A stretch of 35,289 bases of DNA, from UHGV virus genome UHGV-0114939. One strand, given 5' to 3'. Shown in pieces: positions 3 through 28,562 of this stretch. This DNA comes from a virus. Position 1 is the first letter of the stretch; each line of letters opens with the position of its first letter. The notes under the pieces were generated by a model. It searched no databases and was not told where the DNA came from. It worked only from the letters and a program-made list of their open reading frames with translations. The translations under genes were made by a program, and so were the position numbers.

Positions 3-191
3 ACACTGGAAAGCATGGTTGCTGGTGGACTGCTTGAGCGGGTGACAGTGTATGAATCGCGTCAGGTACGGCGCGGCGGTGAGACTAACGCAACGGTCGT
101 GCGCTACGGTTTACCCGGTCACTGCGCTGTTATGCGCGATACTGGCGGCGCTGATAACGCAATATCAGGCGAATACATGCGGGTCAGTTAA
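3..191 (+). CDS. hypothetical protein, 3' end only (5' end lies outside the window)
   Basis: Frame open from the window edge to TAA at 189-191 (tail ...VRYGLPGHCAVMRDTGGADNAISGEYMRVS). Absent from the ORF track because it is under 60 codons from its first in-window ATG. Converges on 184..726. Confidence 0.3.
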   Translation, partial: TLESMVAGGLLERVTVYESRQVRRGGETNATVVRYGLPGHCAVMRDTGGADNAISGEYMRVS

Positions 192-726
192 GAGCCTGCA
201 ATCTGTCGTTAATGTTGTTCAGGTCGTAAACCCGGCGTTCAATATCCAGCATCAGGAAATCGTGGATCTCGGCCTGTTCAGGATTATCAGACTCTCTGGC
301 CTGTAAGAGCAATTCATTGTAACCATGCAAACCACCCGAATTTTCCGCCGGGGTAGTGCCCTTCCCGCGCAAACAGCTAACAGGCTGGATACTGGTATCA
401 TGTGTTTGCTTCTCCAGCACAACAAGGCAATCCCACCAGTCGCCAAAGTCATACGTGTAAACCAGCTTGTCACCCTCATTCTGGAGCGCCGCCCATAGTG
501 GCGTGATTGCCGCGTTACCCATGCTTTCATCCTCACCCCATACGCGATACTCGCTACCTGGATCACCTTTACGCCCTTTCTCGAACATATACAGGTGTTC
601 GTCATTCCAGCCAAAAGCTAACTGGATCACGGCATGAAGTTTACTAAAGGGGATTTGCTCTGGAACCAGCACACGCCGCCATATTGGTGGTTTGCTGTCT
701 CGGATGGTTATCTTTATCTGGTACAT
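184..726 (-). CDS. pRiA4b ORF-3-like domain protein (function unknown)
   Basis: ATG at 726. N-terminus MYQIKITIRDSKPPIWRRVLVPEQIPFSKLHAVIQLAFGWNDEHLYMF matches the hallmark of the plasmid pRiA4b ORF-3-like family (recognised from memory, no search run). Confidence 0.65.
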   Translation of the reverse strand: MYQIKITIRDSKPPIWRRVLVPEQIPFSKLHAVIQLAFGWNDEHLYMFEKGRKGDPGSEYRVWGEDESMGNAAITPLWAALQNEGDKLVYTYDFGDWWDCLVVLEKQTHDTSIQPVSCLRGKGTTPAENSGGLHGYNELLLQARESDNPEQAEIHDFLMLDIERRVYDLNNINDRLQALN

Positions 727-769
727 GCGTCGTGAACCAATAGTGTACGTTTAGGTGGGTATTTTTCTG

Positions 770-1204
770 CTACTGACCAGGATAGAGCTGATGTGCCGGG
801 TCAAGCCAGACAATATGGAATACATTACCGATGAAAAATCCATGTATGCGACCATATTCATTGCGCGATATGGCAAATTGATAAGGTGTATAACTCTGAA
901 ACTGTTCATTCAAATGCTGAAATCCCTTAGGTTCAGATGTAGTTTGCCAATCAATCGGATGTGACTTCAACGAACCACCGCGATCGGTGGTGAACTCTCG
1001 TTCAGTCATAGTGGAAAGGTCTTTGAGGCGGTCTAACACCTTGCAAAAATAAACAGGATTCTGAGCGCTGAAAGTAAATTTCTCATGCGCCGCATCGATA
1101 TACCGAAAAGAAAAGTTGATGGTCGTTATGCCTGAACCTGTTCCCCCAGGCACTATTTTTGTTTGCGAGGGTGCAATCTTCGACGCCCTGATTCTTTTCG
1201 CCAT
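770..1204 (-). CDS. hypothetical protein; putative toxin partner of the Panacea-domain gene
   Basis: ATG at 1204 lies 2 nt after the TAA of 1207..1662, with no Shine-Dalgarno, implying translational coupling. C-terminus RIHGFFIGNVFHIVWLDPAHQLYP loosely resembles the terminal beta-strands of RelE/ParE-fold toxins; N-terminus has a Gly-rich stretch (GGTGSG). Confidence 0.55.
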   Translation of the reverse strand: MAKRIRASKIAPSQTKIVPGGTGSGITTINFSFRYIDAAHEKFTFSAQNPVYFCKVLDRLKDLSTMTEREFTTDRGGSLKSHPIDWQTTSEPKGFQHLNEQFQSYTPYQFAISRNEYGRIHGFFIGNVFHIVWLDPAHQLYPGQ

Positions 1205-1206
1205 AT

Positions 1207-1662
1207 TTAGGAAGCCATCGAACGATAAAACTCAGCCGTTACACTTTTATCAATAACATTCTTGCACGGCGCATCTGATGGAACCCCTTCACGGGCCTCC
1301 AGCCACGGCTTTTCTTGGTGCGTCATCTGCTCCAGCTCATAAGCTGTATAACCGCCAAATACCTCATAGATTTCCTTTAGATGCTTTGACACATTCGCAG
1401 GTAACTCAGGGCAGGCAATCTCTTCGTCTATTGAGCGCCATTTGTAATCTGCAAATCTGGTATACAAATCTCTGGCTACAGGGCCATGTACCCATGCTTC
1501 AAACTTGTCAGCAACCAGTTCTTCGCCATCATTCAGCGCCATGAACCAAGCATCAGCATAGAACACCATTTTTTGCAGTTTCAGCGGCGTCATAACATCC
1601 CCATGCTCTTGAGCAAAGCAAAGCAGGTAATCCGCTACGCTGTTAAGGGTTGTAACTGCCAT
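1207..1662 (-). CDS. Panacea (DUF4065) domain protein, antitoxin-like
   Basis: Start moved to the internal ATG at 1662 (Met78 of track ORF 1207..1893), which is preceded by a GGAG RBS. Sequence MAVTTLNSVADYLLCFAQEHGDVMTPLKLQKMVFYADAWFMAL is typical of Panacea/SocA-like antitoxin domains. Confidence 0.65.
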   Translation of the reverse strand: MAVTTLNSVADYLLCFAQEHGDVMTPLKLQKMVFYADAWFMALNDGEELVADKFEAWVHGPVARDLYTRFADYKWRSIDEEIACPELPANVSKHLKEIYEVFGGYTAYELEQMTHQEKPWLEAREGVPSDAPCKNVIDKSVTAEFYRSMAS

Positions 1663-1983
1663 TATCCAATCTCCTGCCGTATGTTTTCGTCTATAACTGT
1701 CCACTACCGTTAATAATCGCATATAACCACGGGTATTGCCCATCGTAAAATGCCATTTAAAGATTCTGCGTGATGGCTCACCATCCACCGCGCAAGATAC
1801 CCGGTGCGTTTGGCTGATAATCCGCAATTTGGTTGAAACCGTCCTGGAAACCTCAAGTTTGGAAACCAGCGACTTGCATCGTAGCTTTGCCATTCGGCGG
1901 TCATAGTTACTGCTATATCCCTTTATTGGCGAGACCTGCGAGAGGTTTTGTTGTTCGAATATATAAAGGTGAATAAAGGTAAT

Positions 1984-5157: not shown

Positions 5158-7884
5158 CTATTCCCATTCGCTAACATCTTTCATGCCACTGAGGGTAGCT
5201 ACAATCCCGGCCCTTGTCAGTTTCACGAATTCTTCAGCCCCAACGGCATCACGAATTGCTTTCATGGCAATTTTATTGGCCGAAAATCGTTTCTCTGCTG
5301 CGGCGATCGCTGCTGGTGATGCCCCTGCGCGCACTGCTTTTGTAGCTTCCTGAACGGCTTTCTCTATCGCATATCGACCACTTCTTGTCGCCCCAATCTT
5401 AGCCACAGCATTTCTTAGCGCGCCACCAGCAACCAAACCACTAATCGAACCAATTACACCACCGCCAAAGCCTCCAGCGATCGCACCTGACTGTTGAACA
5501 CCGTTCATAATCACGCCGACGATCTTTGGAAGGCCTGAATCGAGCGTTTTGAGAGCCTCAGTTGTTCTTCCCGTGCGCTCTACGTATCGCTGCGGTCTGG
5601 TACTGGCTTTAGCGAGTACACCGAACTCTTTCATCATTCTACCGAGATCTGGCGCATGACGACTGATGGCGTTTACATTCTGCTGGGTCATGAGCTTGGC
5701 AAAATACTGGATACCTGACTCTTCACCGATTCCTCCCTTCTCTCCCTGCGCCACAGCATGCTGAAGAATAGATGCTATTGCAGGTTGGCGTTCTGCTTCC
5801 GGCAGCGCGGAGATAAGACGGTGAAAAGCTCCCGTTCCAGTGTTTGCGGATGCCTTAAGCGTATCGGCACCTTTTCTTACCATAGCGTCTGATGCGAGAT
5901 CTCGACCAAAAACAGATTCGGCATTTTGTTTGGCGATAATGTAACTTTTAGAGAGATCGTTAGCTTTCTGCCATTCTGTGAGGAAGTTTCCTTTTTCAGC
6001 CATGATGCGCATGTCATCAGTGATAGCTCTGCGCATTTCTCCGGCAATCCGGGCGGCATTGGCCTTACCTGCCCGGGTGTTTGCTTGTTCAGCATCAGCA
6101 AACTTAGCACGCCATGCCTTCATCCCGTCGAAGGTTATGCCGCCACCTTGGTTGTTGGCAGCCTGAAACTGTTTCATCTCCGGGCTGAGTGGAACATTGG
6201 CTGCTTTTTCTGCTTGGACGACAGCCATCCCATTACTCATTTTCATCCTTTCGCGTGGCATCGTGCTTCGCAGTTCTGCCCATGCCATATTCTCTGCTGT
6301 TTTCATATCACTGAGGCTCGCGATGATGCGCTCTTTAATTGCTGCGCTTTTTTCTGATGCGCTTCCAGACTCAGCACCGAAATCAGACAACTGCTTATTC
6401 AACTTTGAGGATATTTCATTGAAGGCCGTAAGGTGAGCATCCTGAACATTCCCAGGAGTTGATGCCAGAACACCTTCTGCTTGGGCAATTCCACGACTAC
6501 CTGAGCGCATTCCAGGCGTCAGGGTGTTGATATTAATACCAGTGATTTTCGCCGCCTTAGCGACATCATCTCTGACGTTTGATGCCTGCGATGCGATATG
6601 CTCTCGGCCTACGGCAGAACGCGCTGCTTTCGATACATCATTGGCGGTTTCCAGAGTATTTGCTGCCCCTAACACATGGCCTGATTGATTTGTATTACTC
6701 CGCAATACATCTCGCATTACGTCACTGGCTGTCTGTCCGCTCTTTATTAAAGCGCGTGCTCCTAGCGATCCTGCTAGGCCAATACCTGTCTCTTTTGCTA
6801 GGTCTTCTGGGCTGATCTGCCCGTTCTTTTGGGCGTTCACCAATGTACCTGGCAGGTTTTCTGCCAACATACTAGCCACCTTTGTGGCCGCACGTTCAGC
6901 ACGTGGAGCGTTGGCAACTGAAGAAGCTGCGGTAGCTGCCTTTCCTGCACCTAATCCTGTAATAAGGTAAGGTGCTAGCTGCTCACCAGCCTGCGCGTAT
7001 GGATCTGTAGGTTGGTCTACTGGGCGAAAGACAGGTGATATGGGCGTGTATGTGCCATCACCCACACCAAGCTTCTGAGCTGCCCATGCTCCGGCTGATT
7101 GCGCCGCATTGACTACCCCCACGCCTGCGTCCATTACATCAAACGGTATATTAGCAATCCCTCTGGCCATCTGCTCTGGCGCAGCTTTCAGCCCTGGCGA
7201 AAGATATTCCATCTCAGGATTAAGGTTAGACTTGGCTACTTGCTGCTGCGGTTCCCCGGCATTTTCATCGGCGAGAAACTGAGCTCTTTTCTGCTCCCAT
7301 GAACTGGCTGTTGGTAGTCCTGCTTCTATGTTCTTAAATTGCTGACGTTTTGCTTCCCATGCAGAAATATCTCCCACCTGAGAGATTTCTTTATCAAGCT
7401 CTGAGTAGTCAGGCTGCTGAAGATTGCGATGTTGACTGGTTTGTGCAAACTGCAAGATTTCACTGTCATCAGGGATTATTCCGGCATCTGCAAATTTACT
7501 TACGTAATTAGCCGTTTCATCTGGCAGTGTAGATTTACCGTTTCTGACGGCATTAATACGAGCATAGCCAGAATTATACCCAGCCAATGCCATACCTATA
7601 TCACCAAATCGCTTCATTCCTTTATTGAGATGGTTTGCTGCGATATCCATTTGCTTTTCAAATGGCAGTGAGCGCGGATCTGTTCCACGATAACCAGCAT
7701 CACTCATTACTGAGGGCATCAGTTGAGCAAATCCTCTAGCTCCTTTCGGTGACTCGGCACTTCCGTTACCACTAGATTCATTGCCAACTAATGTTTCCAT
7801 CGTCCCTGATGGGAAACCATATTTTTCATCGAGATGACGGGAATAGGCTTTCTGTTTTTCTGTCAGTTGTGCCATCATTGCCAT
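5158..7884 (-). CDS. phage internal virion / DNA-ejection-like protein with N-terminal lytic transglycosylase (SLT) domain
   Basis: 908 aa. N-terminus has SLT motifs (ETLVGNESSGNG...GFAQLMPS...ALAGYNSGYARI); the rest is Ala/Gln-rich and helical. Start overlaps the upstream gene by 10 nt. Confidence 0.8.
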   Translation of the reverse strand: MAMMAQLTEKQKAYSRHLDEKYGFPSGTMETLVGNESSGNGSAESPKGARGFAQLMPSVMSDAGYRGTDPRSLPFEKQMDIAANHLNKGMKRFGDIGMALAGYNSGYARINAVRNGKSTLPDETANYVSKFADAGIIPDDSEILQFAQTSQHRNLQQPDYSELDKEISQVGDISAWEAKRQQFKNIEAGLPTASSWEQKRAQFLADENAGEPQQQVAKSNLNPEMEYLSPGLKAAPEQMARGIANIPFDVMDAGVGVVNAAQSAGAWAAQKLGVGDGTYTPISPVFRPVDQPTDPYAQAGEQLAPYLITGLGAGKAATAASSVANAPRAERAATKVASMLAENLPGTLVNAQKNGQISPEDLAKETGIGLAGSLGARALIKSGQTASDVMRDVLRSNTNQSGHVLGAANTLETANDVSKAARSAVGREHIASQASNVRDDVAKAAKITGININTLTPGMRSGSRGIAQAEGVLASTPGNVQDAHLTAFNEISSKLNKQLSDFGAESGSASEKSAAIKERIIASLSDMKTAENMAWAELRSTMPRERMKMSNGMAVVQAEKAANVPLSPEMKQFQAANNQGGGITFDGMKAWRAKFADAEQANTRAGKANAARIAGEMRRAITDDMRIMAEKGNFLTEWQKANDLSKSYIIAKQNAESVFGRDLASDAMVRKGADTLKASANTGTGAFHRLISALPEAERQPAIASILQHAVAQGEKGGIGEESGIQYFAKLMTQQNVNAISRHAPDLGRMMKEFGVLAKASTRPQRYVERTGRTTEALKTLDSGLPKIVGVIMNGVQQSGAIAGGFGGGVIGSISGLVAGGALRNAVAKIGATRSGRYAIEKAVQEATKAVRAGASPAAIAAAEKRFSANKIAMKAIRDAVGAEEFVKLTRAGIVATLSGMKDVSEWE

Positions 7885-9194
7885 CCCTTAAGTTTTGCCT
7901 GATAGTAACTTTCCGGCAGATAGCCATGTGCGGTCACATAATCCTTAACCAGTGAAGGATCCTGCAACAGCATTTTGGTATCAGTTTCTTCGTCCTTAGA
8001 TTTGGTTACAGGAATACCGAGCCCGGCAATCTGTCGTTTCTGCATTCGAATAATTACGTCCTGCGCTTTATTCAACTCTCGCAAAAATGCCTCATTGCTG
8101 GTTGCTGACTTAATGCCATTTTGAGATTGCATAAGGGCAGCCCTTTCCCCTTCGGTTGGGTTAGAGCCAAAAGTCCCTTTGAGGCTAGGCAGAATAACCT
8201 TTAGGTTGTATTCATCAGCTTTGGCGCGTAGGCTTCGTGTGTCTTCTGCTACATCAGGAAGGAATCCAAACCCCAGCGTCAGGGGGTTATAGTTCTGCGA
8301 GCGGGTAACGGCCGAAGGATGTTTCCCTACAATTCCCGCCAGTTCATGACCCACTTCAAGCGCAGAGTTCAAGGAGTCGATGTTACCTGCAACAGTATTA
8401 ATTTTATCGTTCATCTTCTCCACTTTCGCCTGCTGTATCTTGCTCAGTTCAGCATTGAGCTTGTCTCTCTCGATGTCATTTTGAGCACGTCCAAGTCGTG
8501 CTTTCAGAACCATTTCTCTCGTGCGTAGTTGGTTATCGGATAGGACTTTGAACTGCTCCATATCGAGACGTCGATTACCCTGTTCCGCATTAACCTGAGC
8601 ATTATATGCGGATGTATCTGCGTTCTGCTGTGCAATGCTCTGCCCTTGCTGCTTCTCTTGAACACTAAAGTAACTATTTGGATCAGCATGGAGGTGGATG
8701 AGGTCAGTGATTCTGTTGAATTCCTGTGGGTCATTCTGCCAAGACTGATAAACCTCTTCAGCAGGAAGACCAAATCGCTGTAATACTGGATTTGCCTGCT
8801 GAATGGCCTTCTGCATGGTCAGTGGATCTCCAGTTTGTGACGCAAGACGCAGATTCATGGCAGCGTCAGCGGTCTGTCGATTTTGCTCAGCATCAATGAA
8901 TCCCATCTGTTTTTGAGAATCAGCCATAAACTGGGGATACTGGGCCATTAACTTCTGCACGCCAACACGATCATTATTAGCTACCGCACTACCCAACCGT
9001 GCCTGATATTCTTTTAACTGCTGGGAAATTTGCGCCTGCTGATTAATCTCAGCAACGCCTCTTAGCCCCTGTAGCGCCATTAAACCTACGTTTGGCTGCT
9101 GCTGATACTGCACAGGCTGAGGAACGGAAGAACGAGGAGCATTATCATTTTGCGGTGCCATGCTAGGCAGCCCGCCAAGTTGCCATGTCGCCAT
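7875..9194 (-). CDS. phage internal virion / ejection-like protein (Gln-rich)
   Basis: 439 aa; ATG at 9194 overlaps the stop of the upstream gene. Size and position match the middle ejection protein of podovirus modules (P22 gp20 / T7 gp15-like position). Confidence 0.65.
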   Translation of the reverse strand: MATWQLGGLPSMAPQNDNAPRSSVPQPVQYQQQPNVGLMALQGLRGVAEINQQAQISQQLKEYQARLGSAVANNDRVGVQKLMAQYPQFMADSQKQMGFIDAEQNRQTADAAMNLRLASQTGDPLTMQKAIQQANPVLQRFGLPAEEVYQSWQNDPQEFNRITDLIHLHADPNSYFSVQEKQQGQSIAQQNADTSAYNAQVNAEQGNRRLDMEQFKVLSDNQLRTREMVLKARLGRAQNDIERDKLNAELSKIQQAKVEKMNDKINTVAGNIDSLNSALEVGHELAGIVGKHPSAVTRSQNYNPLTLGFGFLPDVAEDTRSLRAKADEYNLKVILPSLKGTFGSNPTEGERAALMQSQNGIKSATSNEAFLRELNKAQDVIIRMQKRQIAGLGIPVTKSKDEETDTKMLLQDPSLVKDYVTAHGYLPESYYQAKLKGWQ

Positions 9195-9871
9195 TAGAAT
9201 CCAAGCCCCCCAACAAGACCAATAAGCCCACCACCAATAGCGCCGGCCGCAGTTCCTATTCCAGGAACAACGGAACCAAGTTGCGCACCCGCTAAAGCGC
9301 CTGATGCTGCCCCACCAATACCACGCGCAAGACTGGATGGCTGCTGCGCCTGACCTGCACGAATAGCGCCAAGCCCCTGCAAGAGTTGTCCGGTATTATT
9401 GGCGTAGTTTTGCCCTGCCGTTGCCTGCCCTGATGCCGCATTCATCCCGACATTTAGCAGGTTTCCATAATTTTGCATTTGCCCACTGAGCCAATTGTTA
9501 TAAAGCATGGGCGCAATGGAAGATAACTGGTTACTGGTAGCTGTTGAGCCAAGCCCCCCGGTAGCTTCTGCTGAGACAAGGTTCTGATAACGGGCCTGAT
9601 CTGCCTGTGTTTTATATAAACCAGAACCAAAGAAATCATTCGCGGCTTTATTCTGCCCTTCCAGAGTCATCAGTCCTTGTAGTTGTTGTAAAGCAGGCAA
9701 TCCGACTTCTGCATACGGCTTGAGATTATTCATCACCGTATTCCACTGCTCGCGCTGCAAATCAATTGCCTGCTGCTGGGCCTTCGCCTGAGCTTTAGAG
9801 GCACCACCATCACCGCCTTTTTCGTATACGGCACGATTGAGATGTTTATGAGCTATGTGGGTAATTAACAT
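9194..9871 (-). CDS. phage internal virion / ejection-like protein with glycine-zipper C-terminus
   Basis: 225 aa; ATG at 9871 with AAGGAA RBS. C-terminus GAQLGSVVPGIGTAAGAIGGGLIGLVGGLGF; size similar to P22 gp7. Confidence 0.6.
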   Translation of the reverse strand: MLITHIAHKHLNRAVYEKGGDGGASKAQAKAQQQAIDLQREQWNTVMNNLKPYAEVGLPALQQLQGLMTLEGQNKAANDFFGSGLYKTQADQARYQNLVSAEATGGLGSTATSNQLSSIAPMLYNNWLSGQMQNYGNLLNVGMNAASGQATAGQNYANNTGQLLQGLGAIRAGQAQQPSSLARGIGGAASGALAGAQLGSVVPGIGTAAGAIGGGLIGLVGGLGF

Positions 9872-10326
9872 TCGCTGAATTCCTTATATTGTTGCCGAGT
9901 TAACTGATAAAGCGTTACGCCGACGGGTTTACCACATCTGATATAAGCATCATCAAGGTGACCAACACGGGTAGCGCCAAGCAAACGGATAATTGCCCGT
10001 CCGTATTTGGTGGTGTCAGGAACCATGGTAATGCTGTTAAGGAATGGTGAGTTTTCGAGAAGCCATTTGCAGAATAATCGATGCCCTTGCAGTGCATATT
10101 CACCACGGAATCCGGGGTCGTACACCGCATGGCATTCAACAACGCTATGCCAGAAGTTACGCACTTCATGAACGCCAGCCAGCACTAATCCTTCGTAGAT
10201 GCCGAGATATACCGCATCAGGCTTGATGTAGTACGTGTGCCCCGGCTCAACAATATTTTCGGTATTGCCTGGCTCGTTAAGAAAGGCCTGTAATCGCACA
10301 GGGTTATCAATAAATTTTAGTTCCAT
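9865..10326 (-). CDS. hypothetical phage protein, first large gene of the ejection-like module
   Basis: 153 aa; ATG at 10326; 7-nt overlap with the next gene. Confidence 0.6.
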   Translation of the reverse strand: MELKFIDNPVRLQAFLNEPGNTENIVEPGHTYYIKPDAVYLGIYEGLVLAGVHEVRNFWHSVVECHAVYDPGFRGEYALQGHRLFCKWLLENSPFLNSITMVPDTTKYGRAIIRLLGATRVGHLDDAYIRCGKPVGVTLYQLTRQQYKEFSEC

Positions 10327-10342
10327 GCGATGCCATCCATTT

Positions 10343-10504
10343 TCACATACAGCCTGCCAGCGCCTTATCTATTAACCCTCGTGCAATTTCATGCAGAGTT
10401 GGCGCTACTCCAATTCCTGATTTTTTACGCTGCTCTTCCTGAATTTTCTTTATCGCTTCCATTTGCTTCTCACTTATCAATACCGGCTTTACTGAAATAG
10501 CCAT
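10343..10504 (-). CDS. small (53 aa) putative ribbon-helix-helix DNA-binding protein, below the ORF-track threshold
   Basis: Hand-translated: ATG at 10504 preceded by AAGGGGG; MAISVKPVLISEKQMEAIKKIQEEQRKKSGIGVAPTLHEIARGLIDKALAGCM; stop TGA at 10343-10345, 16 nt before the 153-aa gene start. Confidence 0.5.
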   Translation of the reverse strand: MAISVKPVLISEKQMEAIKKIQEEQRKKSGIGVAPTLHEIARGLIDKALAGCM

Positions 10505-10597
10505 AACGCCCCCTTAGAACTGTATAAAACAACAGTTATTATAGTTTCACAAATCGCAATATTCATCATCGTAATTGCAAAATATGAAACAAATAGC

Positions 10598-10630
10598 ACA
10601 AAAAAATGCCACCGCTCAGTAGCTGGTGGC
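10598..10630 (-). terminator. rho-independent terminator downstream of the primase gene
   Basis: Minus strand reads GCCACCAGCTACTGAGCGGTGGC followed by a 7-nt T run (hairpin 10608-10630, A run 10600-10606 on plus). Confidence 0.55.
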
Positions 10631-10948
10631 ATCGTTCTGTGTGTCAGGTTTTGACAGGTTTTTTATGGACTCTAAAAACTATATTTATGGTGTCGCATTA
10701 CTCTTCACGGCAGGCGCTTTTCAGTTCTGCCCTTGCTTCTGGCTCCATTGGTAATTTGATTCGCGATCAGCTATGCGGATGGTTTGCTGAACAGGCATAA
10801 CAACTTCTCAGAGGCTGTTTTTTGAACTACGAAAATTTCGTAGTGCTCACTTTCAAAAACGTCACGCCCTTGTACACAGGATTTTACGAAAGTCTCGTAA
10901 AACACTCTCTGATGCCAGCCAGGTGTTGTGCGCATCAATTCAGTCACA

Positions 10949-11067
10949 TTGTGTTGGTTCAAAATACCGTGTTGTTGGTTCAGTGTTGGTTCAATAAAAA
11001 GAATAAAATCCTTATAAAACAATACTCTTTACAAATTGAACCAACTGAACCAACTGAACCAACACCT
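10949..11067. repeat. iteron cluster 2: GTTGGTTCA at 10953, 10974, 10985 and 3 tandem TGAACCAAC at 11037-11063; mirror image of cluster 1
   Basis: 11027-11067 is an exact reverse complement of 2781-2821. Sits 22 bp 3' of the primase-helicase gene, like the P4 crr/ori repeats bound by alpha. Confidence 0.8.
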
Positions 11068-11088
11068 TTTCTACGCACATGAAGAAGC

Positions 11089-13848
11089 TCATTCTTCAGA
11101 TGAGTTATAATCTCCTGGCTGGTAATTGAGTACATAAACGTTTATTTGTCGTCCCTGAATACGTGGTGATTTTCTTTGGTATCCACGACCGCTGTTTGGT
11201 GGGGTTAGCATCCCGGCTTTTTTCAACACTTCAGCAAACTGTTTTGCGTTGAAACCACATGCGATCTCCTTTTCAAATGTGGCCGGGAATGTGTAGAAAA
11301 TCATTGGGCTTTCGTCATGTTCTCCACGCTGACGGTATCCGGCTAAATCTTTGATGGGCAAATCTGCCGGGCTGTATGGAAATGGTGCAAAACGGCTAAG
11401 CCCATAGGCATTAAGAAATGCCTCCGTTTGTTCAATAATCTGCTGATGCTCTTTGTTACCTGTGCCGAACTCACGCAACCATGCGTTATAGCTGTGCTGT
11501 ATCGCATCACGGCATGTCTGAGCATCCCAGCCTGTTACAACCTCGCCTAACAACAATGCGGCCTCCAGAATGGCAAATCGCGCGGCTACACGGTGAACCT
11601 GCTCACCATAATCGGATGGGATCAGGCTTCTCCATCTGCTTTCGCAATCACGAACGGTTTTAATAGCCTGTTGCTGGTGGTCTGCCAGCCATTTAATCCA
11701 CTCACGCCCGGACGCGCCGTGGTGATGCTGGTAAGCGTCTTTCAGTGCGTCTGCGTGCTGTTTTCCGTTCTGGTAATCGTGAAAGCGTACTGCTTTACTC
11801 AACGGAATATTCAGCAGTCGCACCAGTTGCCCGGCTTTGGTTTTTCGCCCGGAAGTAGCGATAAATGTTTCTAAATCCATTTCTCCGGTGCTGATTGCCA
11901 CTGTACGCCAACGTTTTAGATCCCGGTTTCCACCATCTTTAGCGCCTTGCAGTTTCCCTACACCGTTAAATAACGCATAGGCAGACTGTGAAACGCTGAC
12001 AGGATCAGCGCCCTGACCAACTTCATCAAGCGGCATTAGTCCGTCATTGTGGGCGGCGGCCTCATTTGCCAGCCCCAGCGCGGTTCCGTACCACGTCAGC
12101 CGCAGTAAATCAGGGTTGCCGTATAAGCTGCTCGCCACGTTTGCCGTGGTGGTCTTACCTGCGCTCGACTGCTCATAGAAATGAATGCCGAACCCGTCAG
12201 CGCCCACCAGCCCAATCAATGGCGCTGCCAGTGCTGCGCCGATCCCGGTCATCATTGAATAGTTACCAAAGGCCAGACGCGCCACGTTATCACGCCAGCT
12301 TTTCGCGCTCCCTGAGACGGTATATCCGGCTGCGGCTGAGCTTCTCCCGCTGAACAGCACAGGATTTTCAGGTGTTCCGATGATTTCCCCATCAGGCATG
12401 ATGTACGCTCCGCATTGCCAGCCAGTGGCATGAGCAACACGCCACAATTCACGAGAGCCACTGCGTTGTAGCCAGTCTGCCAGTATTGCTCTGAGGCTGC
12501 TTTTGGTCGTGACATTTACCCCACCAGCTTTAAGTGTGCGCCATCCTTCACGTTCACCAATATCAGCCAGTGGAATGGCAGCGGTTGTCGGCGTTTCAGA
12601 ACCAAACGACAGCCAGCGAAGAATGAGATACTGGTCTTTATCGTCTCTGCCAGTACCGATAACGCTTAACGGAGAACATAACCAGCTTTCGTTATTGATG
12701 ATTTCTCCACTCTGGCTGTCAGCTCTCGGAGATACCCAATAAATACCATCCTCGCGGCTTTCTATTCTTGGTTTCAGTGGGTCGGTATCCATAACCTTAA
12801 AATCGCTTCCCTCAATGGTCTGTGGCTCCTGTTTCACGCCATTACCCTGTGGTTGGTACATTGACTTATTGAACGCTTCTGTGGCGCATTTAATGCCGTG
12901 TTTTTGGTGGTAATCATTCCAGTCTGCTTTGTGATCTGTCGGGGGTAATGCCACCCATCCAGAAACAGATAAAGCTGCTTTTTCTGCTGCTATTCTCCCC
13001 GTGTTTTGTCTTCCTTCGCTGTGGTCGTTATCCGCAGCAATGATGATTTGTGCTGAAGGAAATTTATCCCGCAGTACCTGGGCGACATATAACAGGTTCC
13101 CGGCATCAATCGCCGCCACTGTCAGCGCCTCTGGACGAATTAAATGGGCAGATAATGCCGTTGCCAGCCCTTCTGCGATTAAGATGCTCTGTGTTGTTTC
13201 TGGTGCGTTTATGGCGTGATATGCCCCTCGCTTTGCCGAACCTGTCAGGAGTCTTTTTTCACCATGTGAGGTAATAGTCTGTGCTGCTGTGACTGCGCCG
13301 GATTTATCCACCAGCGCCAGCAACAGAGATCCATCGGGCAACACGGGGAATGTAAAATCACCTACCCCTTTCGCAACCAGATAATCAGATTTGCCGTTTA
13401 CAGCCTTTCTGCGCATGTCATCAAACTGACGGGAAAACGTATCCCGTCTTTGTTGTTCGTCCTTCTCTGCCCTTTTCAGGCGCTCCTGTTCGCGTCGCTG
13501 GCGCTCGGTTTCCAGTTGTTCCCGTTTCTGGCTGGTGGCTTCTGGTGTTTCCGTTGTCCGGTAATCAATACCCAGAACATCAGCGGCAAGAAGCGCCGCC
13601 TCTGTTGTGTCGCAGTTATTTACGCGTTTAATTAAATCCAGCCCATCACCAGCGCCGCACTGATTACAGATGAAGCTACCGCGCCCGTTGTCGTCGAACC
13701 GGAATCGATCTTTGCCCCCACATGCAGGGCAGGGAGCATGACGGCGCGGAGAGTCAGGGACATTTATGTTCAGGCAGCCCAGCACATGAGGCCAGTTGTT
13801 TTCAGACGCACTGATAACCTGACGGATAAGATCAATGTTTCGCATCAC
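11089..13848 (-). CDS. P4-alpha-like primase-helicase (zinc ribbon + Toprim + DUF927-type NTPase)
   Basis: Zinc ribbon CPACGG...FICNQCG; Toprim acidic motif IIAADNDH; Walker A YEQSSAGKTTT. Track start at 13848 is a GTG; an ATG follows at 13845. Confidence 0.85.
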   Translation of the reverse strand: MMRNIDLIRQVISASENNWPHVLGCLNINVPDSPRRHAPCPACGGKDRFRFDDNGRGSFICNQCGAGDGLDLIKRVNNCDTTEAALLAADVLGIDYRTTETPEATSQKREQLETERQRREQERLKRAEKDEQQRRDTFSRQFDDMRRKAVNGKSDYLVAKGVGDFTFPVLPDGSLLLALVDKSGAVTAAQTITSHGEKRLLTGSAKRGAYHAINAPETTQSILIAEGLATALSAHLIRPEALTVAAIDAGNLLYVAQVLRDKFPSAQIIIAADNDHSEGRQNTGRIAAEKAALSVSGWVALPPTDHKADWNDYHQKHGIKCATEAFNKSMYQPQGNGVKQEPQTIEGSDFKVMDTDPLKPRIESREDGIYWVSPRADSQSGEIINNESWLCSPLSVIGTGRDDKDQYLILRWLSFGSETPTTAAIPLADIGEREGWRTLKAGGVNVTTKSSLRAILADWLQRSGSRELWRVAHATGWQCGAYIMPDGEIIGTPENPVLFSGRSSAAAGYTVSGSAKSWRDNVARLAFGNYSMMTGIGAALAAPLIGLVGADGFGIHFYEQSSAGKTTTANVASSLYGNPDLLRLTWYGTALGLANEAAAHNDGLMPLDEVGQGADPVSVSQSAYALFNGVGKLQGAKDGGNRDLKRWRTVAISTGEMDLETFIATSGRKTKAGQLVRLLNIPLSKAVRFHDYQNGKQHADALKDAYQHHHGASGREWIKWLADHQQQAIKTVRDCESRWRSLIPSDYGEQVHRVAARFAILEAALLLGEVVTGWDAQTCRDAIQHSYNAWLREFGTGNKEHQQIIEQTEAFLNAYGLSRFAPFPYSPADLPIKDLAGYRQRGEHDESPMIFYTFPATFEKEIACGFNAKQFAEVLKKAGMLTPPNSGRGYQRKSPRIQGRQINVYVLNYQPGDYNSSEE

Positions 13849-15624: not shown

Positions 15625-15815
15625 TTTTCACCACCAAGAATTACCAGCTCTGCACGAGCATCGTTAACCAAAGATGAGCACGCTTTAATCGCATCCACGA
15701 CATCAGCAGCGTCCATTTCTTCAGCCGAAAGACTGACAGCAACCAGGACAGCCGCTGCTTGCTCGATTAATTGAAGTGCGGACGTAAGTCGAGGGGCATT
15801 AATTGAGTTATTCAT
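15621..15815 (-). CDS. hypothetical small protein
   Basis: Internal ATG at 15815 (Met20 of the track ORF) preceded by a GGGGG-type RBS. Confidence 0.45.
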   Translation of the reverse strand: MNNSINAPRLTSALQLIEQAAAVLVAVSLSAEEMDAADVVDAIKACSSLVNDARAELVILGGEK

Positions 15816-16836
15816 TGGTTGCCCCCGTTTTTCCTGGCATTTCGCCACCTTCCAGCAGGAAATGAACGTCACGAACGGCGAGATCCAATATCGCGAGTAA
15901 CGCCTTCAGTCTTTCGTCTCGTGAGGGAGAGTTGCTCACCAGAATGTCGTTAATCACTTCTGTCAGTGTGATGATCTGGCTTGTGCGTTCGAGGGGATCC
16001 ATATGCACATCGTAGGTTTTAATCATGTGCCACCTCCATGCGGATACGACCAGCAAAAAAGCAGACGTGATCGCGCACCAGAGAACGGCGAGCATCGCGT
16101 TCAGACTCGGCAGCAATATGATGAATTTTGGCGGTAATTGTCGGGCAATCGCGGCGAACTGCGGCGATAATCCAGATAAATTGCGGTTTTTGGGTAGGGG
16201 TAGTAGCCAGCATGTGGCAGCCTCCTTGATTGATGGTTTATAGCCACCGCCGGAGGTCCTAAGCTCGCTGGCGGTGGACTGTACAGGGTTAGGACTACTG
16301 GCAATCAAGGAAACCAGCCTGACCGAAGTCAGCCCCATACAGCCCACCATTGATAAGGTGTGCGTGTGCGCCGATACAAAAAAAGACGCTGGCGCGTCAT
16401 GTATCGCCTCGATTGCCTGCGGGGTCCTAATCCCGGCACCCGTTTTATGAGGTGCCTTATAACCATAAACCGTGTTGCCGCATAACGGCAAGCTCTTTTT
16501 TATGGACTCCGAAAACTCAGTATTGGAAGCACCAGATGCACAGTACATCGCGCTCATTTCGTTAACGTCACGCACGTGGACGAATGTTTTTGTGGAGTCA
16601 CTACACGAGCGGAAGACATCATCTACGACCAGAAATTTTCTGGCGCAGCCGCTGACCTTCTCAATGCTAATATCATCGCCCGAGATTTCTGGTATGGTTA
16701 AGGCATCCGTTCCGGCCACCAGCAAATGATAAACTTTGCTTGTATCTGCTGTATTAATGCCTGACTTTGCCGTCATATTTCTGGATTTTGGCGACATACC
16801 AGCCAGTGAAAATGTCTTCTTCTGGATGGGTATCAT
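15808..16836 (-). CDS. hypothetical protein (342-codon open frame; may be composite)
   Basis: ATG at 16836 with GGAGGT RBS and ATGA overlap with the upstream gene, so the start is credible. Internal ORFs with strong RBS at 16213 and 16026, and GC-rich hairpins at 16245-16277, leave the true extent uncertain. Confidence 0.4.
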
Positions 16837-17850: not shown

Positions 17851-18282
17851 TTAGGCGGCGTTAAACGCGTTCGGGTAGAGTTTCAGAATGTCGGCAATTT
17901 CCTGCTGAGAAAGTCCGTTGTGATCATTTATGTTCGCAAGATGGTTAACATGAGTGATCACTTTCAGAACATCACCACGGCAGGAGAAACGGTAGCGAAG
18001 GTGTGTTCCGATACCATCAGGATTCTTTTCGTCGATACGCTCCAGAGTGATTCCAAGCTGGCGTTCTAACTCTGTTGCATAGTTACGACCAGAAGACAGA
18101 CGGCAGTAGCGAAGAATGTCATTTTCTGTCCATCCCTCTATACCAGTACGCAGCATATAGACTCTGGCACGATGCTTTTTCGGTGTGCGCTTTGGTGCTT
18201 GAAGGGATTTTGTCAGGGGCGTAACATCAGATACGCGAATATCTGAATTAGCCGCCTGTAATGGGCGGTTTTTCTTTTCCAT
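17851..18282 (-). CDS. hypothetical protein (P4-like island regulatory region)
   Basis: ATG at 18282 with GAGGTGG RBS; overlaps the AlpA stop. Confidence 0.55.
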   Translation of the reverse strand: MEKKNRPLQAANSDIRVSDVTPLTKSLQAPKRTPKKHRARVYMLRTGIEGWTENDILRYCRLSSGRNYATELERQLGITLERIDEKNPDGIGTHLRYRFSCRGDVLKVITHVNHLANINDHNGLSQQEIADILKLYPNAFNAA

Positions 18283-18485
18283 CAGGCCACCTCGTCTCTA
18301 GATTCTAATATACACTTCTCAATCCATTCATCTATTTCAGACTCAACAAAAGCAATTGCCCGACTTCCAATTTTTACCTGTTTAGGGAACCTCCCCTGAC
18401 TAATAAGACGATAAATCCATGCTTTGCTATAACCAGTTCGCCTTTGAACTTCAGAGAGACGAATTAATGAATTGTAATTAGCCAT
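18282..18485 (-). CDS. alpA: AlpA-family phage transcriptional regulator / excisionase-like HTH protein
   Basis: 67 aa: MANYNSLIRLSEVQRRTGYSKAWIYRLISQGRFPKQVKIGSRAIAFVESEIDEWI, the typical AlpA signature. Confidence 0.8.
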   Translation of the reverse strand: MANYNSLIRLSEVQRRTGYSKAWIYRLISQGRFPKQVKIGSRAIAFVESEIDEWIEKCILESRDEVA

Positions 18486-18912
18486 TTATTAATATCCTGT
18501 ACTAATGACGCAATAACCCCCTCCTGCAACGAATGGCGAGAGTTTTATTTGCGTCAAATGTCGAATACGCCAAAGACCACAATATGAAAAACATATTGCG
18601 GTCTTTTATAAAAGATAGTCAGATTGTTTTGGTTTGTTTGCTCCACAAGGGTAGAGCTACCCTGCATTTCGGCAGGATCACGCTATTAGGCGTGACATCC
18701 AGTAGTTTTAAAGAACAATTGCGCTTTGTCAGCGCCAAAGCCTGTTAAAGAACATTCCGCTTTTCAGCAGCGTAGAAGGCTCAATACACCTTCGTTTATA
18801 AAAGAGCGATTGCCCTTCTCCAGGGCTAACTGTTAAATAGCAATCCTCTGTGAGTTTTTATCAATCTACTCCCCTATACTTTAGTAAACCTCTGTATACT
18901 TGTCCAGTTGTT

Positions 18913-20127
18913 TCATGCGTGTTTTTCAAACACCATATGCACCACATTTCCGCCATGCTCGAGAGAATCCATATAGTCGGCATACCATTGAAGCATCTCC
19001 CGCCGTCCATCCAGATATTGCGCATGGTTGTATGTGCCACGAATTGAGTTCTTATCAACGTGAGCGAGCTGCGTTTCTATCCACGCGGTGTTATAGCCCT
19101 GCTCATGCAAAATCGTGCTCATAGTGTGTCGGAACCCATGACCAGTTACACGTCCAGCGTAGCCAATGCGCTTAAACACTTGGTTTATGCTGGCCTCACT
19201 CATTGTTTTCCTTGGATCATTGCGCCCGGGAAACATAAGAGGGTAATTGCCTGTTATTTCTCTAATCTTCCCAATAAGCGAAAGAGCCTGCTCAGACAAT
19301 GGCACAATATGAGGCCGCCGCATTTTCATACGTGAAGCGGGTATCTCCCATATAGCCTTGTTGAAATCAATTTCATCCCATAATGCGCCACGTAGTTCGC
19401 CAGTTCGCAAGCCGGTGATAATCAGTAGACGAGCCGCCATAACAACCAATGCGCTTCCTGAGTAACTGGACAATGCCTTGAAAAAATCAGGTAATTCTTT
19501 GGTCGTAAGGAAAGGGTAATGATTAGATTCATGGCCTTGCATCGCGCTAGTAAGGTCTGGTGCAGGGTTATACTCTGCGCGACCAGTGACTATTGCATAA
19601 CGGAAAACTTCCCCGCACCGCTGCCTCACTTTTTTGGCTTTTTCTGTCGCACCGCGCCCCTCGATGCGCCGCAGCACATTCAGAAGTTCAAGTGGTTTGA
19701 TTTCGGCGATTGGTTTTTTGCCAATGTAAGGGAACACATCTTTGTTGAAGGCTTCGAGGATGTCTGAAGCATAACCAGCAGACCATTTTTTTAATTTGCT
19801 GCTGTGCCACTCAAGGGCAATATCTTTGAAGGTGTTGTTTAACTGCGTTTCCCGGGCAATCTTTTCCTCTCGTTTCGCTTCCATCGGATCGATACCACCA
19901 GCGATACCTCTTTTCGCATCTTCTCGTTTTGCCCGAGCATCGGCTAGAGTAACCTCAGGATACACACCTAGTGCCAATAGCTTCTCTTTACCAGCTACAC
20001 GATATTTAAGTCGCCAGTATTTACCTCCATTAGGTTTTACCAAGAGATACAAACCGCCACCATCGGCCAGCTTGTAAGCCTTCTCTTTTGGCTTGGCTGT
20101 GTCTATTTGACGGGCATTGAGTTTCAC
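18913..20127 (-). CDS. P4-type tyrosine integrase
   Basis: GTG start at 20127 with GGAGGT RBS. N-terminal arm-binding signature LADGGGLYLLVKPNGGKYWRLKYR; C-terminal catalytic HGFRHT and Tyr region RGTYNHAQY. Lies next to the tRNA-derived att core. Confidence 0.9.
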   Translation of the reverse strand: MKLNARQIDTAKPKEKAYKLADGGGLYLLVKPNGGKYWRLKYRVAGKEKLLALGVYPEVTLADARAKREDAKRGIAGGIDPMEAKREEKIARETQLNNTFKDIALEWHSSKLKKWSAGYASDILEAFNKDVFPYIGKKPIAEIKPLELLNVLRRIEGRGATEKAKKVRQRCGEVFRYAIVTGRAEYNPAPDLTSAMQGHESNHYPFLTTKELPDFFKALSSYSGSALVVMAARLLIITGLRTGELRGALWDEIDFNKAIWEIPASRMKMRRPHIVPLSEQALSLIGKIREITGNYPLMFPGRNDPRKTMSEASINQVFKRIGYAGRVTGHGFRHTMSTILHEQGYNTAWIETQLAHVDKNSIRGTYNHAQYLDGRREMLQWYADYMDSLEHGGNVVHMVFEKHA

Positions 20128-20328: not shown

Positions 20329-20443
20329 ATTCCAATGACGTGTTTCACAAGTCATTGATTCTTCGAACCGAATGCGCTGCTCCTGAAAGGCAAAACTGAC
20401 ACAACTGATCACGGTTGCCCCTGAATATTAGATCGGGGGAAAG

Positions 20444-21646: not shown

Positions 21647-21792
21647 AAGTAAAACACACCATAAAAACAGCCAAAAAAAAACAATAGTTATAACTTAATA
21701 AAATTTAATGCTAATTAATTCAAATCATTATCATCTCGCTTCATTTTTTATTTATTTGGAAATATATTGATACAAAAAAGGACGGATTGACT

Positions 21793-22434: not shown

Positions 22435-22438
22435 AACA

Positions 22439-23146: not shown

Positions 23147-23148
23147 AA

Positions 23149-23165
23149 GCCGGGATTAACCCGGC
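23149..23165. terminator. hairpin GCCGGG-ATTAA-CCCGGC between convergent genes (putative bidirectional terminator)
   Basis: Perfect 6-bp stem directly after the stops of 22439..23146 (+) and 23167..23373 (-). Confidence 0.4.
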
Positions 23166-23166
23166 C

Positions 23167-23373
23167 TCAATGTTTCAGTTTAATCTTTCGATGCTGCTCA
23201 TAATGAGCAAGTGCTGATTCCCAACCGTAATCATTCACCCGCTGCAAAAAAGTGCTGCGTGGAACGTCGAAATATCTCGCAATGGCTGACAGATTCAACC
23301 AGTTATCGGATTGATTATCAAGACTCATTGCCAGAAGTGGCAGACCTTTAGAATTGAACAGTTTCATGTGCAT
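23167..23373 (-). CDS. small helix-turn-helix protein
   Basis: ATG at 23373 preceded by AAGGAAAGGAGAT. HTH-like LSAIARYFDVPRSTFLQRV. Confidence 0.5.
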   Translation of the reverse strand: MHMKLFNSKGLPLLAMSLDNQSDNWLNLSAIARYFDVPRSTFLQRVNDYGWESALAHYEQHRKIKLKH

Positions 23374-23437
23374 GTGTGTATCTCCTTTCCTTTGCCTCGC
23401 CTGGCAGCGGGAGCAATGCGCTCCCGCAAACCGCTTT

Positions 23438-24478: not shown

Positions 24479-24501
24479 TTTTGAAGTCCTTTTCTTGTTT
24501 G

Positions 24502-28547: not shown

Positions 28548-28562
28548 TTATTCCTCCAATTG

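What the first reader, a model, noticed from the sequence alone, without database searches (positions are those of the whole stretch)
10343..10504. Unlisted 53-aa RHH-like gene between the iterons and the ejection module
Shorter than the ORF-track cutoff, but it has a strong AAGGGGG RBS and a strand-helix-helix pattern. It is the first gene after the long non-coding iteron/promoter region, so it is a likely regulator of the cassette.
Basis: seen in the sequence. Interest (0 to 1): 0.4.

Follow-up and report, generated by a model that had tools for sequence, protein, structure and literature searches.

The report
Small RHH gene heading satellite late operon
The 53-codon reading frame is a real, conserved gene for a small ribbon-helix-helix protein; with its own operator-bearing promoter it starts the phage-derived "late" operon of a phage satellite integrated in E. 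coli, so it is probably that operon's regulator, though no experiment has tested this.

Summary

The element is a Gram-negative PICI-type satellite: int, AlpA, Bro zone with C4/isrK RNAs, DUF927 primase, iteron ori, late zone. The gene belongs to the satellite backbone, not to the P22-type ejection module. It always follows the replication zone and is followed by whatever late cargo was captured.

It travels with a conserved cis module: a terminator, two 17-bp palindromes exactly 30 bp apart, a perfect TATAAT and a Shine-Dalgarno sequence. In the E. coli lineage there is also a canonical LexA box (18.7 bits).

Most likely it is an autoregulatory RHH regulator of the late-zone promoter (confidence about 0.5). 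DNA binding is untested. This is a new, unannotated member of a known kind, of moderate interest.

The parts
10343..10504 (-). orf53: 53-aa RHH-fold protein (RefSeq WP_001018524.1, hypothetical protein)
10509..10515 (-). Shine-Dalgarno sequence AAGGGGG, 4 nt before the ATG
   Evidence: Read. An AGGGGG or AGGAGG is conserved at this position in 60 distinct relatives.
10518..10537 (-). LexA-type SOS box AACTGTTGTTTTATACAGTT (core CTGT-N8-ACAG at 10520-10535), between the -10 hexamer and the SD, over the expected transcription start
   Evidence: It scores 18.7 bits with a weight matrix built from 18 E. coli LexA boxes recalled from the literature; those boxes score 12.8-26.5. It is the best site in the window. 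Expected 0.017 per shuffled window. The box is canonical in only about 20 of 61 distinct relatives.
10538..10543 (-). -10 hexamer TATAAT of the late-zone promoter; the -35 is weak (ATGAAT, 3 of 6)
   Evidence: Read. The columns are at least 90% conserved in the 60-sequence alignment. The consensus scan missed the promoter because the -35 is poor.
10544..10560 (.). Proximal 17-bp palindromic operator (minus strand ATTGCGATTTGTGAAAC; half-site ATT(G/T)CA). It fills the 17-bp spacer between -35 and -10.
   Evidence: Inverted repeat I3. Only two matches to the pattern occur in the window, against 0.17 expected, and both are here. Half-sites are conserved and the centre is variable across 60 relatives.
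10574..10590 (.). Distal 17-bp palindromic operator (minus strand GTTTCATATTTTGCAAT), starting exactly 30 bp from the proximal one
   Evidence: The two sites lie exactly 30 bp apart in all 11 loci where the strict search pattern caught both; the full alignment of 60 distinct upstream regions shows both sites conserved.
10598..10630 (-). Intrinsic-terminator-like hairpin (GCCACC...GGTGGC) plus a T run. It insulates the late promoter from the upstream replication operon.
   Evidence: Terminator scan. Similar hairpin and T run in L004, L005, L023 and L034.
10951..11065 (.). Iterons (TGAACCAAC-type: three direct and three in the opposite orientation). Presumed satellite replication origin, just after the primase gene.
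   Evidence: Repeat families D1 and D2 and inverted repeats I7-I13. The placement matches the PICI plan of pri/rep followed by ori (PMC6092414).
11089..13848 (-). Primase-helicase (Zn ribbon, Toprim, DUF927): the replication zone of the satellite
   Evidence: Pfam hits. It lies upstream of orf53 on the same strand in nearly all relatives.
5158..10326 (-). Late-zone cargo co-transcribed with orf53: gp14-like DUF2824 (9865-10326), P22 gp7-like (9194-9871), gp20-like (7875-9194), gp16-like with SLT domain (5158-7884)
   Evidence: Pfam hits; PHROG hit. Only 16 nt separate the orf53 stop from the gp14-like ATG. About 90% nucleotide identity to phages Kapi1 and Louie begins inside the gp14-like gene and does not reach orf53.

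Best explanation
orf53 encodes a small basic (9 K/R against 6 D/E) ribbon-helix-helix protein. It is the promoter-proximal gene of the late zone of a Gram-negative PICI-type phage satellite integrated at tRNA-Thr (thrW) in E. coli.

Proposed mechanism (inferred, not shown). Dimers of the protein bind the two 17-bp palindromes. Their half-sites (ATT(G/T)CA) are 11 bp apart, and the two sites lie 30 bp apart. The sites cover the -35/-10 spacer and the region around -51 of the gene's own promoter. Binding there would autoregulate, most likely repress, transcription of orf53 and of the captured virion genes behind it, here the P22-type ejection genes 14, 7, 20 and 16.

An upstream terminator isolates this unit from the replication operon. 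In the E. coli lineage a canonical LexA box over the transcription start adds SOS dependence. The operon would then fire when a helper prophage is induced.

Shown: the gene is real; the fold is RHH; the gene and the cis module are inherited as one unit in front of changing cargos.
Inferred: DNA binding, the operator assignment, the sign of regulation, and LexA control.
For: - Real gene: pS is saturated while pN is 0.07-0.37. The frame is intact in about 75 loci.
- Conserved unit: terminator or upstream motif, two palindromes 30 bp apart, TATAAT, SD and orf53 are conserved in 60 distinct upstream sequences, with an operator-like footprint of conserved half-sites and variable centres.
- Operator specificity: the palindromes occur only at this promoter in the 35-kb window (2 found, 0.17 expected). 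A 45%-identical relative keeps the TTGCA dyads (L077).
- Changing flanks: accessory genes upstream and cargo downstream differ between relatives. The gene stays at the head of the late zone even with a different replicase (D5/Pox_D5 type; L025 and L026).
- Satellite origin: absent from 50,697 phage records, and the match to phage DNA stops inside the gp14-like gene.
- LexA box: 18.7 bits, expected 0.017 per shuffled window.
- Precedent: SaPI operon I, the corresponding post-ori operon, is LexA-controlled (Ubeda 2007, as cited in PMC6092414).
Against: - No experimental data exist on expression or DNA binding.
- No RHH sequence family matches any of 38 family members. hhalign against TraM, CopG and Arc is not significant.
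- If S11 caps helix A, the ribbon residues that should read DNA are V5, P7 and L9. Only K6 is a conserved basic residue. That is atypical for DNA-reading RHH proteins.
- The operators could equally be bound by another backbone protein (AlpA, PerC, Bro-zone proteins) or by a helper protein.
- One relative (L078) sits inside a podophage-like structural cluster without the dyads.
- The LexA box is canonical in only about a third of relatives. Most carry a 15-bp version that is 1 bp too short.
Confidence: 0.5

Rival explanations
1. A TraM-like DNA-processing accessory protein rather than a transcription factor. The RHH protein would bind satellite DNA next to the origin and mark it for a machine, such as the helper terminase for packaging or the replication initiator, much as TraM marks oriT for the coupling protein.
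For: - The closest solved structure by a clear margin is the TraM N-terminal domain.
- The only full-length, gapless hhalign alignment is also to TraM (47 columns, P = 0.012).
- The gene lies about 450 bp from the iteron origin.
- PICIs must redirect helper packaging, and some relatives carry DUF5681 (terminase-small-like) genes further downstream.
Against: - The protein is 53 aa and has no C-terminal partner-binding domain like that of TraM.
- The TraM Pfam model (PF05261) does not match any of the 38 members.
- The conserved palindromes sit exactly on a promoter, between -35 and -10, not at the iterons.
Confidence: 0.15
2. A protein-binding RHH-fold factor, not a DNA-binding one. It could act as an assembly or stability helper for the envelope-penetrating cargo proteins, or as an inhibitor of a helper-phage protein. 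The promoter palindromes would then be read by another regulator, such as AlpA, PerC, a Bro-zone protein or a helper factor.
For: - The N-terminal strand is hydrophobic on both faces (VLL).
- The gene is always immediately next to DNA-delivery proteins.
- In L078 a homolog lies between a gp14-like and an SLT internal virion protein, with no dyads.
Against: - One 53-aa protein, 60-85% conserved, is unlikely to chaperone cargos as unrelated as P22 gp14/7/20/16, tape measure proteins and baseplate hubs.
- It is retained in a 12-kb episomal copy whose cargo is largely deleted.
- It is basic, and the conserved P-(S/T) at the start of helix B and the invariant R42 fit DNA-binding RHH proteins.
Confidence: 0.15
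3. An RHH-type antitoxin of a toxin-antitoxin pair.
For: Many RHH structural neighbours are antitoxins: ParD, MazE7 and VapB12 appear. The size and the first-gene position are also typical.
Against: No conserved downstream partner exists; the next gene differs completely between relatives. None of the neighbouring genes is a toxin family.
Confidence: 0.03
4. Not a gene: a chance ORF in the 5' leader of the ejection operon.
For: It is short, it has no family hit, and many chance ORFs of this size surround it.
Against: - Strong purifying selection with saturated synonymous sites.
- A conserved SD and start codon.
- A confident fold prediction from co-evolving homologs.
- About 60 representative clusters in a 1.84-billion-protein library.
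Confidence: 0.02

Closest known systems
TraM N-terminal RHH domain of F-like conjugative plasmids (PDB 3omy, 3on0)
   Same: - The same long helix A ending in a basic stretch.
- Gapless alignment over 47 columns.
- From my own knowledge: TraM binds repeated sites that overlap its own promoter and autoregulates.
   Different: - No significant sequence similarity: PF05261 does not match, and hhalign gives 3.6% probability.
- No C-terminal tetramerisation and TraD-binding domain.
- The context is a phage satellite, not a relaxosome.
Small RHH repressors of phages and plasmids (P22 Arc and Mnt, pMV158 CopG, Omega, AmrZ, PutA and NikR N-terminal domains)
   Same: - The same fold and size.
- First-gene position behind a promoter that carries dyad operators.
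- Operator half-sites 11 bp apart, as recalled for Arc.
   Different: - No Pfam RHH family matches.
- A longer helix A and a longer A-B loop (S-x-x-G-x-A-P-S/T).
- A hydrophobic ribbon.
- hhalign aligns only the strand and helix A with CopG and Arc.
Late zone of Gram-negative PICIs (Tommasini, Mageeney and Williams 2023, PMC10111431; Fillol-Salom 2018, PMC6092414)
   Same: The element has the four published zones in order: Int and AlpA; a Bro zone (AntA/B, Ash) with C4/isrK immunity RNAs; primase and ori; then a late zone of captured helper late genes.
   Different: In the parts of those papers that I read or searched, no conserved small gene or promoter/operator module at the head of the late zone is described. 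The main text says capsid genes are the commonest capture. Behind orf53 the captures I could classify are all DNA-delivery parts.
LexA-controlled operon I of SaPIs (Ubeda et al. 2007, cited in PMC6092414)
   Same: It is the operon directly after the satellite's ori, it encodes functions that act on helper virions, and it is preceded by an SOS box.
   Different: - A different phylum, with unrelated genes.
- LexA binding is untested here, and the box is canonical in only about a third of relatives.
- As far as I recall, SaPI operon I has no RHH first gene.

Membership tests
Ribbon-helix-helix (MetJ/Arc) superfamily | beta-alpha-alpha topology in about 45-55 residues | tested here: met
   AF2 with 38 sequences: extended 1-11, helix 12-28, helix 37-52, mean pLDDT 91.7.
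Ribbon-helix-helix (MetJ/Arc) superfamily | Structural superposition on solved RHH domains | tested here: met
   [not shown]
Ribbon-helix-helix (MetJ/Arc) superfamily | Match to a curated RHH sequence family (Pfam RHH_1, CopG, Arc and similar; NCBIfam) | tested here: not met
   No RHH family hit for the query or for any of 38 members at E up to 10. NCBIfam gave none. A profile search of PDB sequences gave none. hhalign is not significant.
Ribbon-helix-helix (MetJ/Arc) superfamily | Obligate dimer with an intertwined two-stranded antiparallel ribbon | not testable with these tools
   Only monomer prediction was available. The N-terminal segment is extended but unpaired in the model.
Ribbon-helix-helix (MetJ/Arc) superfamily | Polar or basic ribbon side chains that read the major groove, and a phosphate-anchoring N-terminus of helix B | tested here: inconclusive
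   K6 is conserved, but V5, P7 and L9 are hydrophobic. The P-(S/T) at the start of helix B and the invariant R42 fit the pattern.
Autoregulatory operator-binding repressor | Repeated or dyad operator overlapping its own promoter | tested here: met
   Two 17-bp palindromes 30 bp apart lie over the -35/-10 spacer and around -51. They are unique in the window (2 found, 0.17 expected) and conserved in 60 relatives. Which protein binds them was not tested.
TraM family (PF05261) | N-terminal RHH plus C-terminal tetramerisation and TraD-binding domain; the gene lies next to oriT | tested here: not met
   The protein has only 53 aa. PF05261 does not match. The context is a satellite late zone.
Gram-negative PICI (the host element) | Co-oriented int and AlpA; Bro zone; primase and ori; late zone of phage late genes; integration at a conserved site | tested here: met
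   int (18913-20127), AlpA-like gene (18282-18485), AntA/B and Ash, C4/isrK RNAs (16267-16455), DUF927 primase, iterons, and P22-type genes 14, 7, 20 and 16. Near-identical copies lie at tRNA-Thr beside proA in E. coli chromosomes.
Gram-negative PICI (the host element) | Induction, replication and packaging that depend on a helper phage | not testable with these tools
   The only hint is a 12.2-kb circular 'plasmid' record with the same backbone (NZ_CP148430.1).
SOS (LexA) regulon | CTGT-N8-ACAG box of native strength overlapping a promoter | tested here: met
   18.7 bits, within the 12.8-26.5 range of 18 recalled E. coli boxes. It lies between the -10 and the SD.
SOS (LexA) regulon | The box is conserved in orthologous promoters; LexA binding and DNA-damage induction | tested here: inconclusive
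   Canonical in about 20 of 61 distinct relatives. The rest carry a 15-bp form that is 1 bp short. Binding cannot be tested here.
Type II toxin-antitoxin (RHH antitoxin) | A conserved adjacent toxin gene | tested here: not met
   The downstream gene differs between relatives and is a virion protein.

The most novel reading that the evidence does not exclude
The orf53/operator module may be the dedicated switch of the late zone in a large family of enterobacterial PICI satellites. It would combine an RHH autorepressor with LexA, or in other lineages an unknown factor that binds the 15-bp CTGTATAAATATCAG.

The late zones it controls may be specialised for one purpose. The satellite would supply its own envelope-penetration and DNA-delivery proteins (P22 E-proteins, T7-like internal virion proteins, tape measure proteins, baseplate hub and spike, fibres). 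Satellite-filled helper particles could then inject into cells whose resident helper prophage blocks injection by superinfection exclusion.
Probability: 0.15. Interest if true: 0.75.

Novelty: new member of a known kind. Interest (0 to 1): 0.42.

Why it matters
How Gram-negative PICIs time the expression of their captured phage late genes is not known. A conserved unit of terminator, two operators, promoter and RHH gene at the head of the late zone gives a concrete, testable candidate for that control point. The unit is portable between satellites with different replicases and different cargos.

In E. coli a strong LexA box at the same promoter suggests a direct link to the SOS signal that also induces helper prophages, as in SaPI operon I. 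The family has no entry in Pfam, NCBIfam or PHROGs, so defining it would improve the annotation of hundreds of E. coli genomes: 924 of 5426 complete genomes match this region.

Tried and rejected
- Sequence-family searches for orf53 found nothing: Pfam, PHROGs, NCBIfam, PDB sequences with two profiles.
- hhalign against F TraM, CopG and Arc (sequences recalled from memory) was not significant.
- A search to build a diverse TraM profile listed only proteins at least 84% identical among its best 120 hits, so I did not use it.
- tblastn of orf53 and of the divergent homolog P0055 against 50,697 phage records gave no match.
- The promoter scan missed the promoter because the -35 is weak.
- Rfam found no known RNA in 10200-11200, only chance microRNA hits on the iterons.
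- I looked for covariation between ribbon residues and operator half-sites in distant relatives. Both are too conserved, or the AT-rich sites too ambiguous, to decide.
- An Ogr/Delta-type TGT-N12-ACA late-promoter element is absent on inspection.
- Literature searches found no paper on this protein or on satellites that carry ejection proteins.
- The antitoxin and 'not a gene' readings are rejected; see the rival explanations.

Full report
**1. The observation.**
The window has a 53-codon ORF at 10343..10504 on the minus strand. Its product is MAISVKPVLISEKQMEAIKKIQEEQRKKSGIGVAPTLHEIARGLIDKALAGCM. AAGGGGG lies at 10509-10515, 4 nt before the ATG.

An ORF of this size is common by chance: 43 ORFs of at least 30 aa overlap the surrounding 4 kb. 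The case therefore rests on conservation.

- The region is present in 924 of 5426 complete E. coli genomes, and RefSeq annotates the ORF as WP_001018524.1, 'hypothetical protein'. 'Unlisted' reflects only the first stage's length cut-off.
- Homologs with an intact frame occur in 18 species of Enterobacterales, in 50 IMG/VR contigs and in metagenomes. A profile search of 1.84 billion representatives found 60 clusters.
- Against 17 relatives the proportion of synonymous differences is 0.70-1.0, which is saturated. The non-synonymous proportion is 0.07-0.37. The median dN/dS over the pairs that could be computed is 0.18.

It is a real protein-coding gene.

**2. The fold.**
No Pfam, PHROG or NCBIfam family and no PDB sequence matches.

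AlphaFold2 with 13 close homologs gave a mediocre model (pLDDT 77.7). With 38 diverse homologs it gave pLDDT 91.7: an extended N-terminus (1-11), helix 12-28, a loop, and helix 37-52.

- PutA, NikR, HP0222, ParD, CopG-family StnY, AmrZ, CdbA and MazE7.

Profile-sequence comparison with F TraM gives a gapless 47-column alignment in the right register, but it is not significant (P = 0.012). CopG and Arc align only over the strand and helix A.

So the RHH fold is supported by structure prediction, while membership of any existing RHH sequence family is not.

One caveat. If S11 caps helix A, the ribbon positions that normally read the DNA are V5, P7 and L9, and only K6 is a conserved basic residue. 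The P-(S/T) at the start of helix B and the invariant R42 do fit DNA-binding RHH proteins. The protein is basic, with 9 K/R against 6 D/E.

**3. The element.**
Near-identical copies lie at tRNA-Thr (thrW) beside proA in E. coli chromosomes. All genes are co-oriented, in this order:
- integrase;
- an AlpA-like HTH gene (18282-18485);
- AntA/B, DUF4222 and Ash, with a C4 antisense RNA and an isrK RNA inside the ash gene (16267-16455);
- small hypothetical genes;
- a Zn-ribbon/Toprim/DUF927 primase (11089-13848);
- a 584-bp non-coding region with iterons;
- orf53;
- then P22-type genes 14 (DUF2824), 7, 20 and 16, the last with an SLT domain.

This is the four-zone plan published for Gram-negative PICIs: integration, Bro, replication and late zones, the late zone holding captured helper late genes (PMC10111431; PMC6092414). 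A 12.2-kb circular record called a plasmid has the same backbone.

**4. Where the small gene belongs.**
orf53 lies downstream of the primase on the same strand in nearly every locus where the flank reaches that far. What follows it changes:
- P22-type E-proteins in E. coli, Leclercia and others;
- T7 gp14-like plus SLT internal virion proteins (L005, L008 and similar loci);
- a lytic tail protein (L006);
- tape measure proteins with a 108-aa partner (L010, L013, L016 and similar loci);
- a Dit-like protein, plug, baseplate hub and gpV-type spike (L011, L063-L070);
- tail fibres (L024).

These identifications come from Pfam and PHROG scans and precomputed Pfam annotations. More distant homologs head a P22-type ejection module in satellites with a different, D5/Pox_D5-type replicase (L025 and L026).

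The gap to the next gene is usually 15-20 nt, and it is 16 nt in the window. The C-terminal tail after K-A-L varies, so recombination joints lie at the 3' end of the gene.

Similarity to real phages (Kapi1, Louie, about 90%) starts inside the gp14-like gene and does not include orf53. tblastn finds no homolog in 50,697 phage records. The gene is therefore a satellite backbone gene, the constant head of a variable late operon, and not part of the ejection module.

**5. The cis module.**
Reading the minus strand upstream of the ATG, the elements are:
- an intrinsic-terminator-like hairpin with a T run (10630-10598);
- a distal 17-bp palindrome, GTTTCATATTTTGCAAT (10590-10574);
- 13 nt that contain a weak -35 (ATGAAT);
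- a proximal palindrome, ATTGCGATTTGTGAAAC (10560-10544), which fills the 17-bp spacer;
- a perfect TATAAT (10543-10538);
- 2 nt;
- CTGTTGTTTTATACAG (10535-10520);
- TTCT, then AAGGGGG, then CGTT, then ATG.

The palindrome pattern occurs twice in the 35-kb window, both times here, against 0.17 expected. In every one of the 11 relatives where the strict pattern caught both sites, they start exactly 30 bp apart.

In an alignment of 60 distinct upstream regions, the half-sites, the TATAAT and the SD are 80-99% conserved, while the palindrome centres and the inter-site spacer vary. That is an operator-like footprint. A 45%-identical homolog (L077) keeps two TTGCA/TGCAA dyads about 31 bp apart.

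Half-sites 11 bp apart would suit two RHH dimers per palindrome, as recalled for Arc. They would also suit an HTH dimer.

**6. The SOS box.**
I built a weight matrix from 18 E. coli LexA boxes recalled from the literature. With it, AACTGTTGTTTTATACAGTT (10518-10537) scores 18.7 bits.
- The training boxes score 12.8-26.5.
- It is the best site in the window.
- The expectation is 0.017 per shuffled window and 0.00025 per shuffled intergenic region.
- It sits over the expected transcription start.

All E. coli, Leclercia and Citrobacter P22-cargo relatives except one, plus L013, L014, L018 and L074, have a canonical box of 13.7-20.9 bits. About 40 of 61 distinct relatives carry an almost invariant CTGTATAAATATCAG that is 1 bp too short. 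SOS control is therefore plausible for this lineage but is not a family-wide feature. The SaPI precedent is LexA control of operon I, the operon after the ori (Ubeda 2007, cited in PMC6092414).

**7. The mechanism I commit to.**
orf53 is most likely an RHH DNA-binding protein that binds the two palindromes and autoregulates the late-zone promoter, probably by repression given that the sites lie at -21 and -51. This would keep the membrane-active, SLT-bearing cargo silent in the integrated state.

The upstream terminator uncouples this unit from the P4-like early and replication operon, which the C4 RNA controls. In E. coli, LexA adds SOS gating.

I put confidence at about 0.5. The rivals are:
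- a TraM-like DNA-marking role in packaging or replication (0.15);
- a protein-binding role, with another factor reading the operators (0.15);
- an antitoxin (0.03);
- not a gene (0.02).

The main caveats are four:
- no sequence-family membership;
- a hydrophobic ribbon;
- no evidence on which protein binds the operators;
- one homolog (L078) lies within a podophage-like structural cluster without dyads.

**8. Novelty and score.**
The RHH fold, autoregulated small repressors, PICI late zones and LexA-controlled satellite operons are all known. What is new is an unannotated RHH family specific to these satellites, tied to a conserved operator and promoter at the head of the late zone. In the papers I read or searched I found no description of it.

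I rate it a new member of a known kind, with interest 0.42. The wider pattern, that the late zones behind this gene hold only DNA-delivery components, is the more intriguing lead. It lies outside this finding and is untested.

Noticed in passing
Loci L003-L076, downstream of the orf53 homolog (window 5158-10326): In every relative I could classify, the late zone behind orf53 encodes only envelope-penetration or DNA-delivery virion parts. These are P22 E-proteins, T7-like internal virion proteins with SLT domains, tape measure proteins, a Dit-like protein with plug, hub and gpV spike, or tail fibres. None has capsid genes there. One possible reason is that the satellite brings its own injection proteins to evade helper superinfection exclusion (SieA acts on DNA injection, PMC10461980).
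   Followed up: partly
window 16267-16455 (minus strand): A C4 antisense RNA (80 bits) and an isrK RNA (63 bits) lie inside the ash-family gene (15808-16836). This is the P4-type RNA immunity system placed in the Bro zone, as described for Gram-negative PICIs (PMC10111431).
   Followed up: partly
window 20338-35289: The match to thrW-island genomes ends at 20337, and the window holds no tRNA. The rest is a second integrative element. It has an integrase (20444-21646), a DarT plus NADAR (DarTG-type) pair (21787-23146), a capsid-E-like gene (23438-24478), a DUF6945 gene and a resolvase (34514-35065). It looks like a tandem island, possibly another capsid-bearing PICI.
   Followed up: partly
L021 = NZ_CP148430.1 (12,152-bp circular 'plasmid', E. 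coli); also NZ_CP146545.1 and Klebsiella records of 19-23 kb: The same satellite backbone is deposited as small non-mobilizable circular plasmids. These may be episomal or excised satellite copies. In L021 the late zone is reduced to a 202-aa gp20-like remnant starting just before the orf53 stop codon (a few nt of overlap).
   Followed up: partly
Promoters of about 40 relatives, e.g. L007 at 5962-5976: An almost invariant 15-bp CTGTATAAATATCAG lies between the -10 and the SD. It is 1 bp shorter than a LexA box and scores only 4-10 bits. Its binding factor or function is unknown.
   Followed up: partly
L078 5001-5201: A 66-aa homolog (P0055) lies inside a T7-like structural cluster: Bbp16, tail tubular proteins A and B, a gp14-like internal virion protein, the homolog, then an SLT internal virion protein. 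It has no TTGCA dyads, and a hairpin covers its SD. The contig may be a phage or a very large captured late zone.
   Followed up: partly
window 18890-18909: A second, weaker LexA-like site (CTCTGTATACTTGTCCAGTT, 13.7 bits; 0.26 expected per shuffled window) lies just after the integrase stop, in the 427-bp int-alpA intergenic region.
   Followed up: no
window 10828-10842 and 10885-10899: Two copies of a 15-bp palindrome (TACGAAAATTTCGTA and TACGAAAGTCTCGTA) lie 57 bp apart in the ori region, between the iterons and the terminator. Klebsiella-type relatives instead have a conserved AACGATCGAA motif upstream of the distal operator.
   Followed up: no
window 184-1893 and about 2450-2750: The distal end of the island carries a pRiA4b ORF-3-like gene (184-726), a SocA/Panacea-domain gene (1207-1893) and a PerC-family regulator. 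In relatives PerC homologs lie next to orf53 on either side.
   Followed up: no
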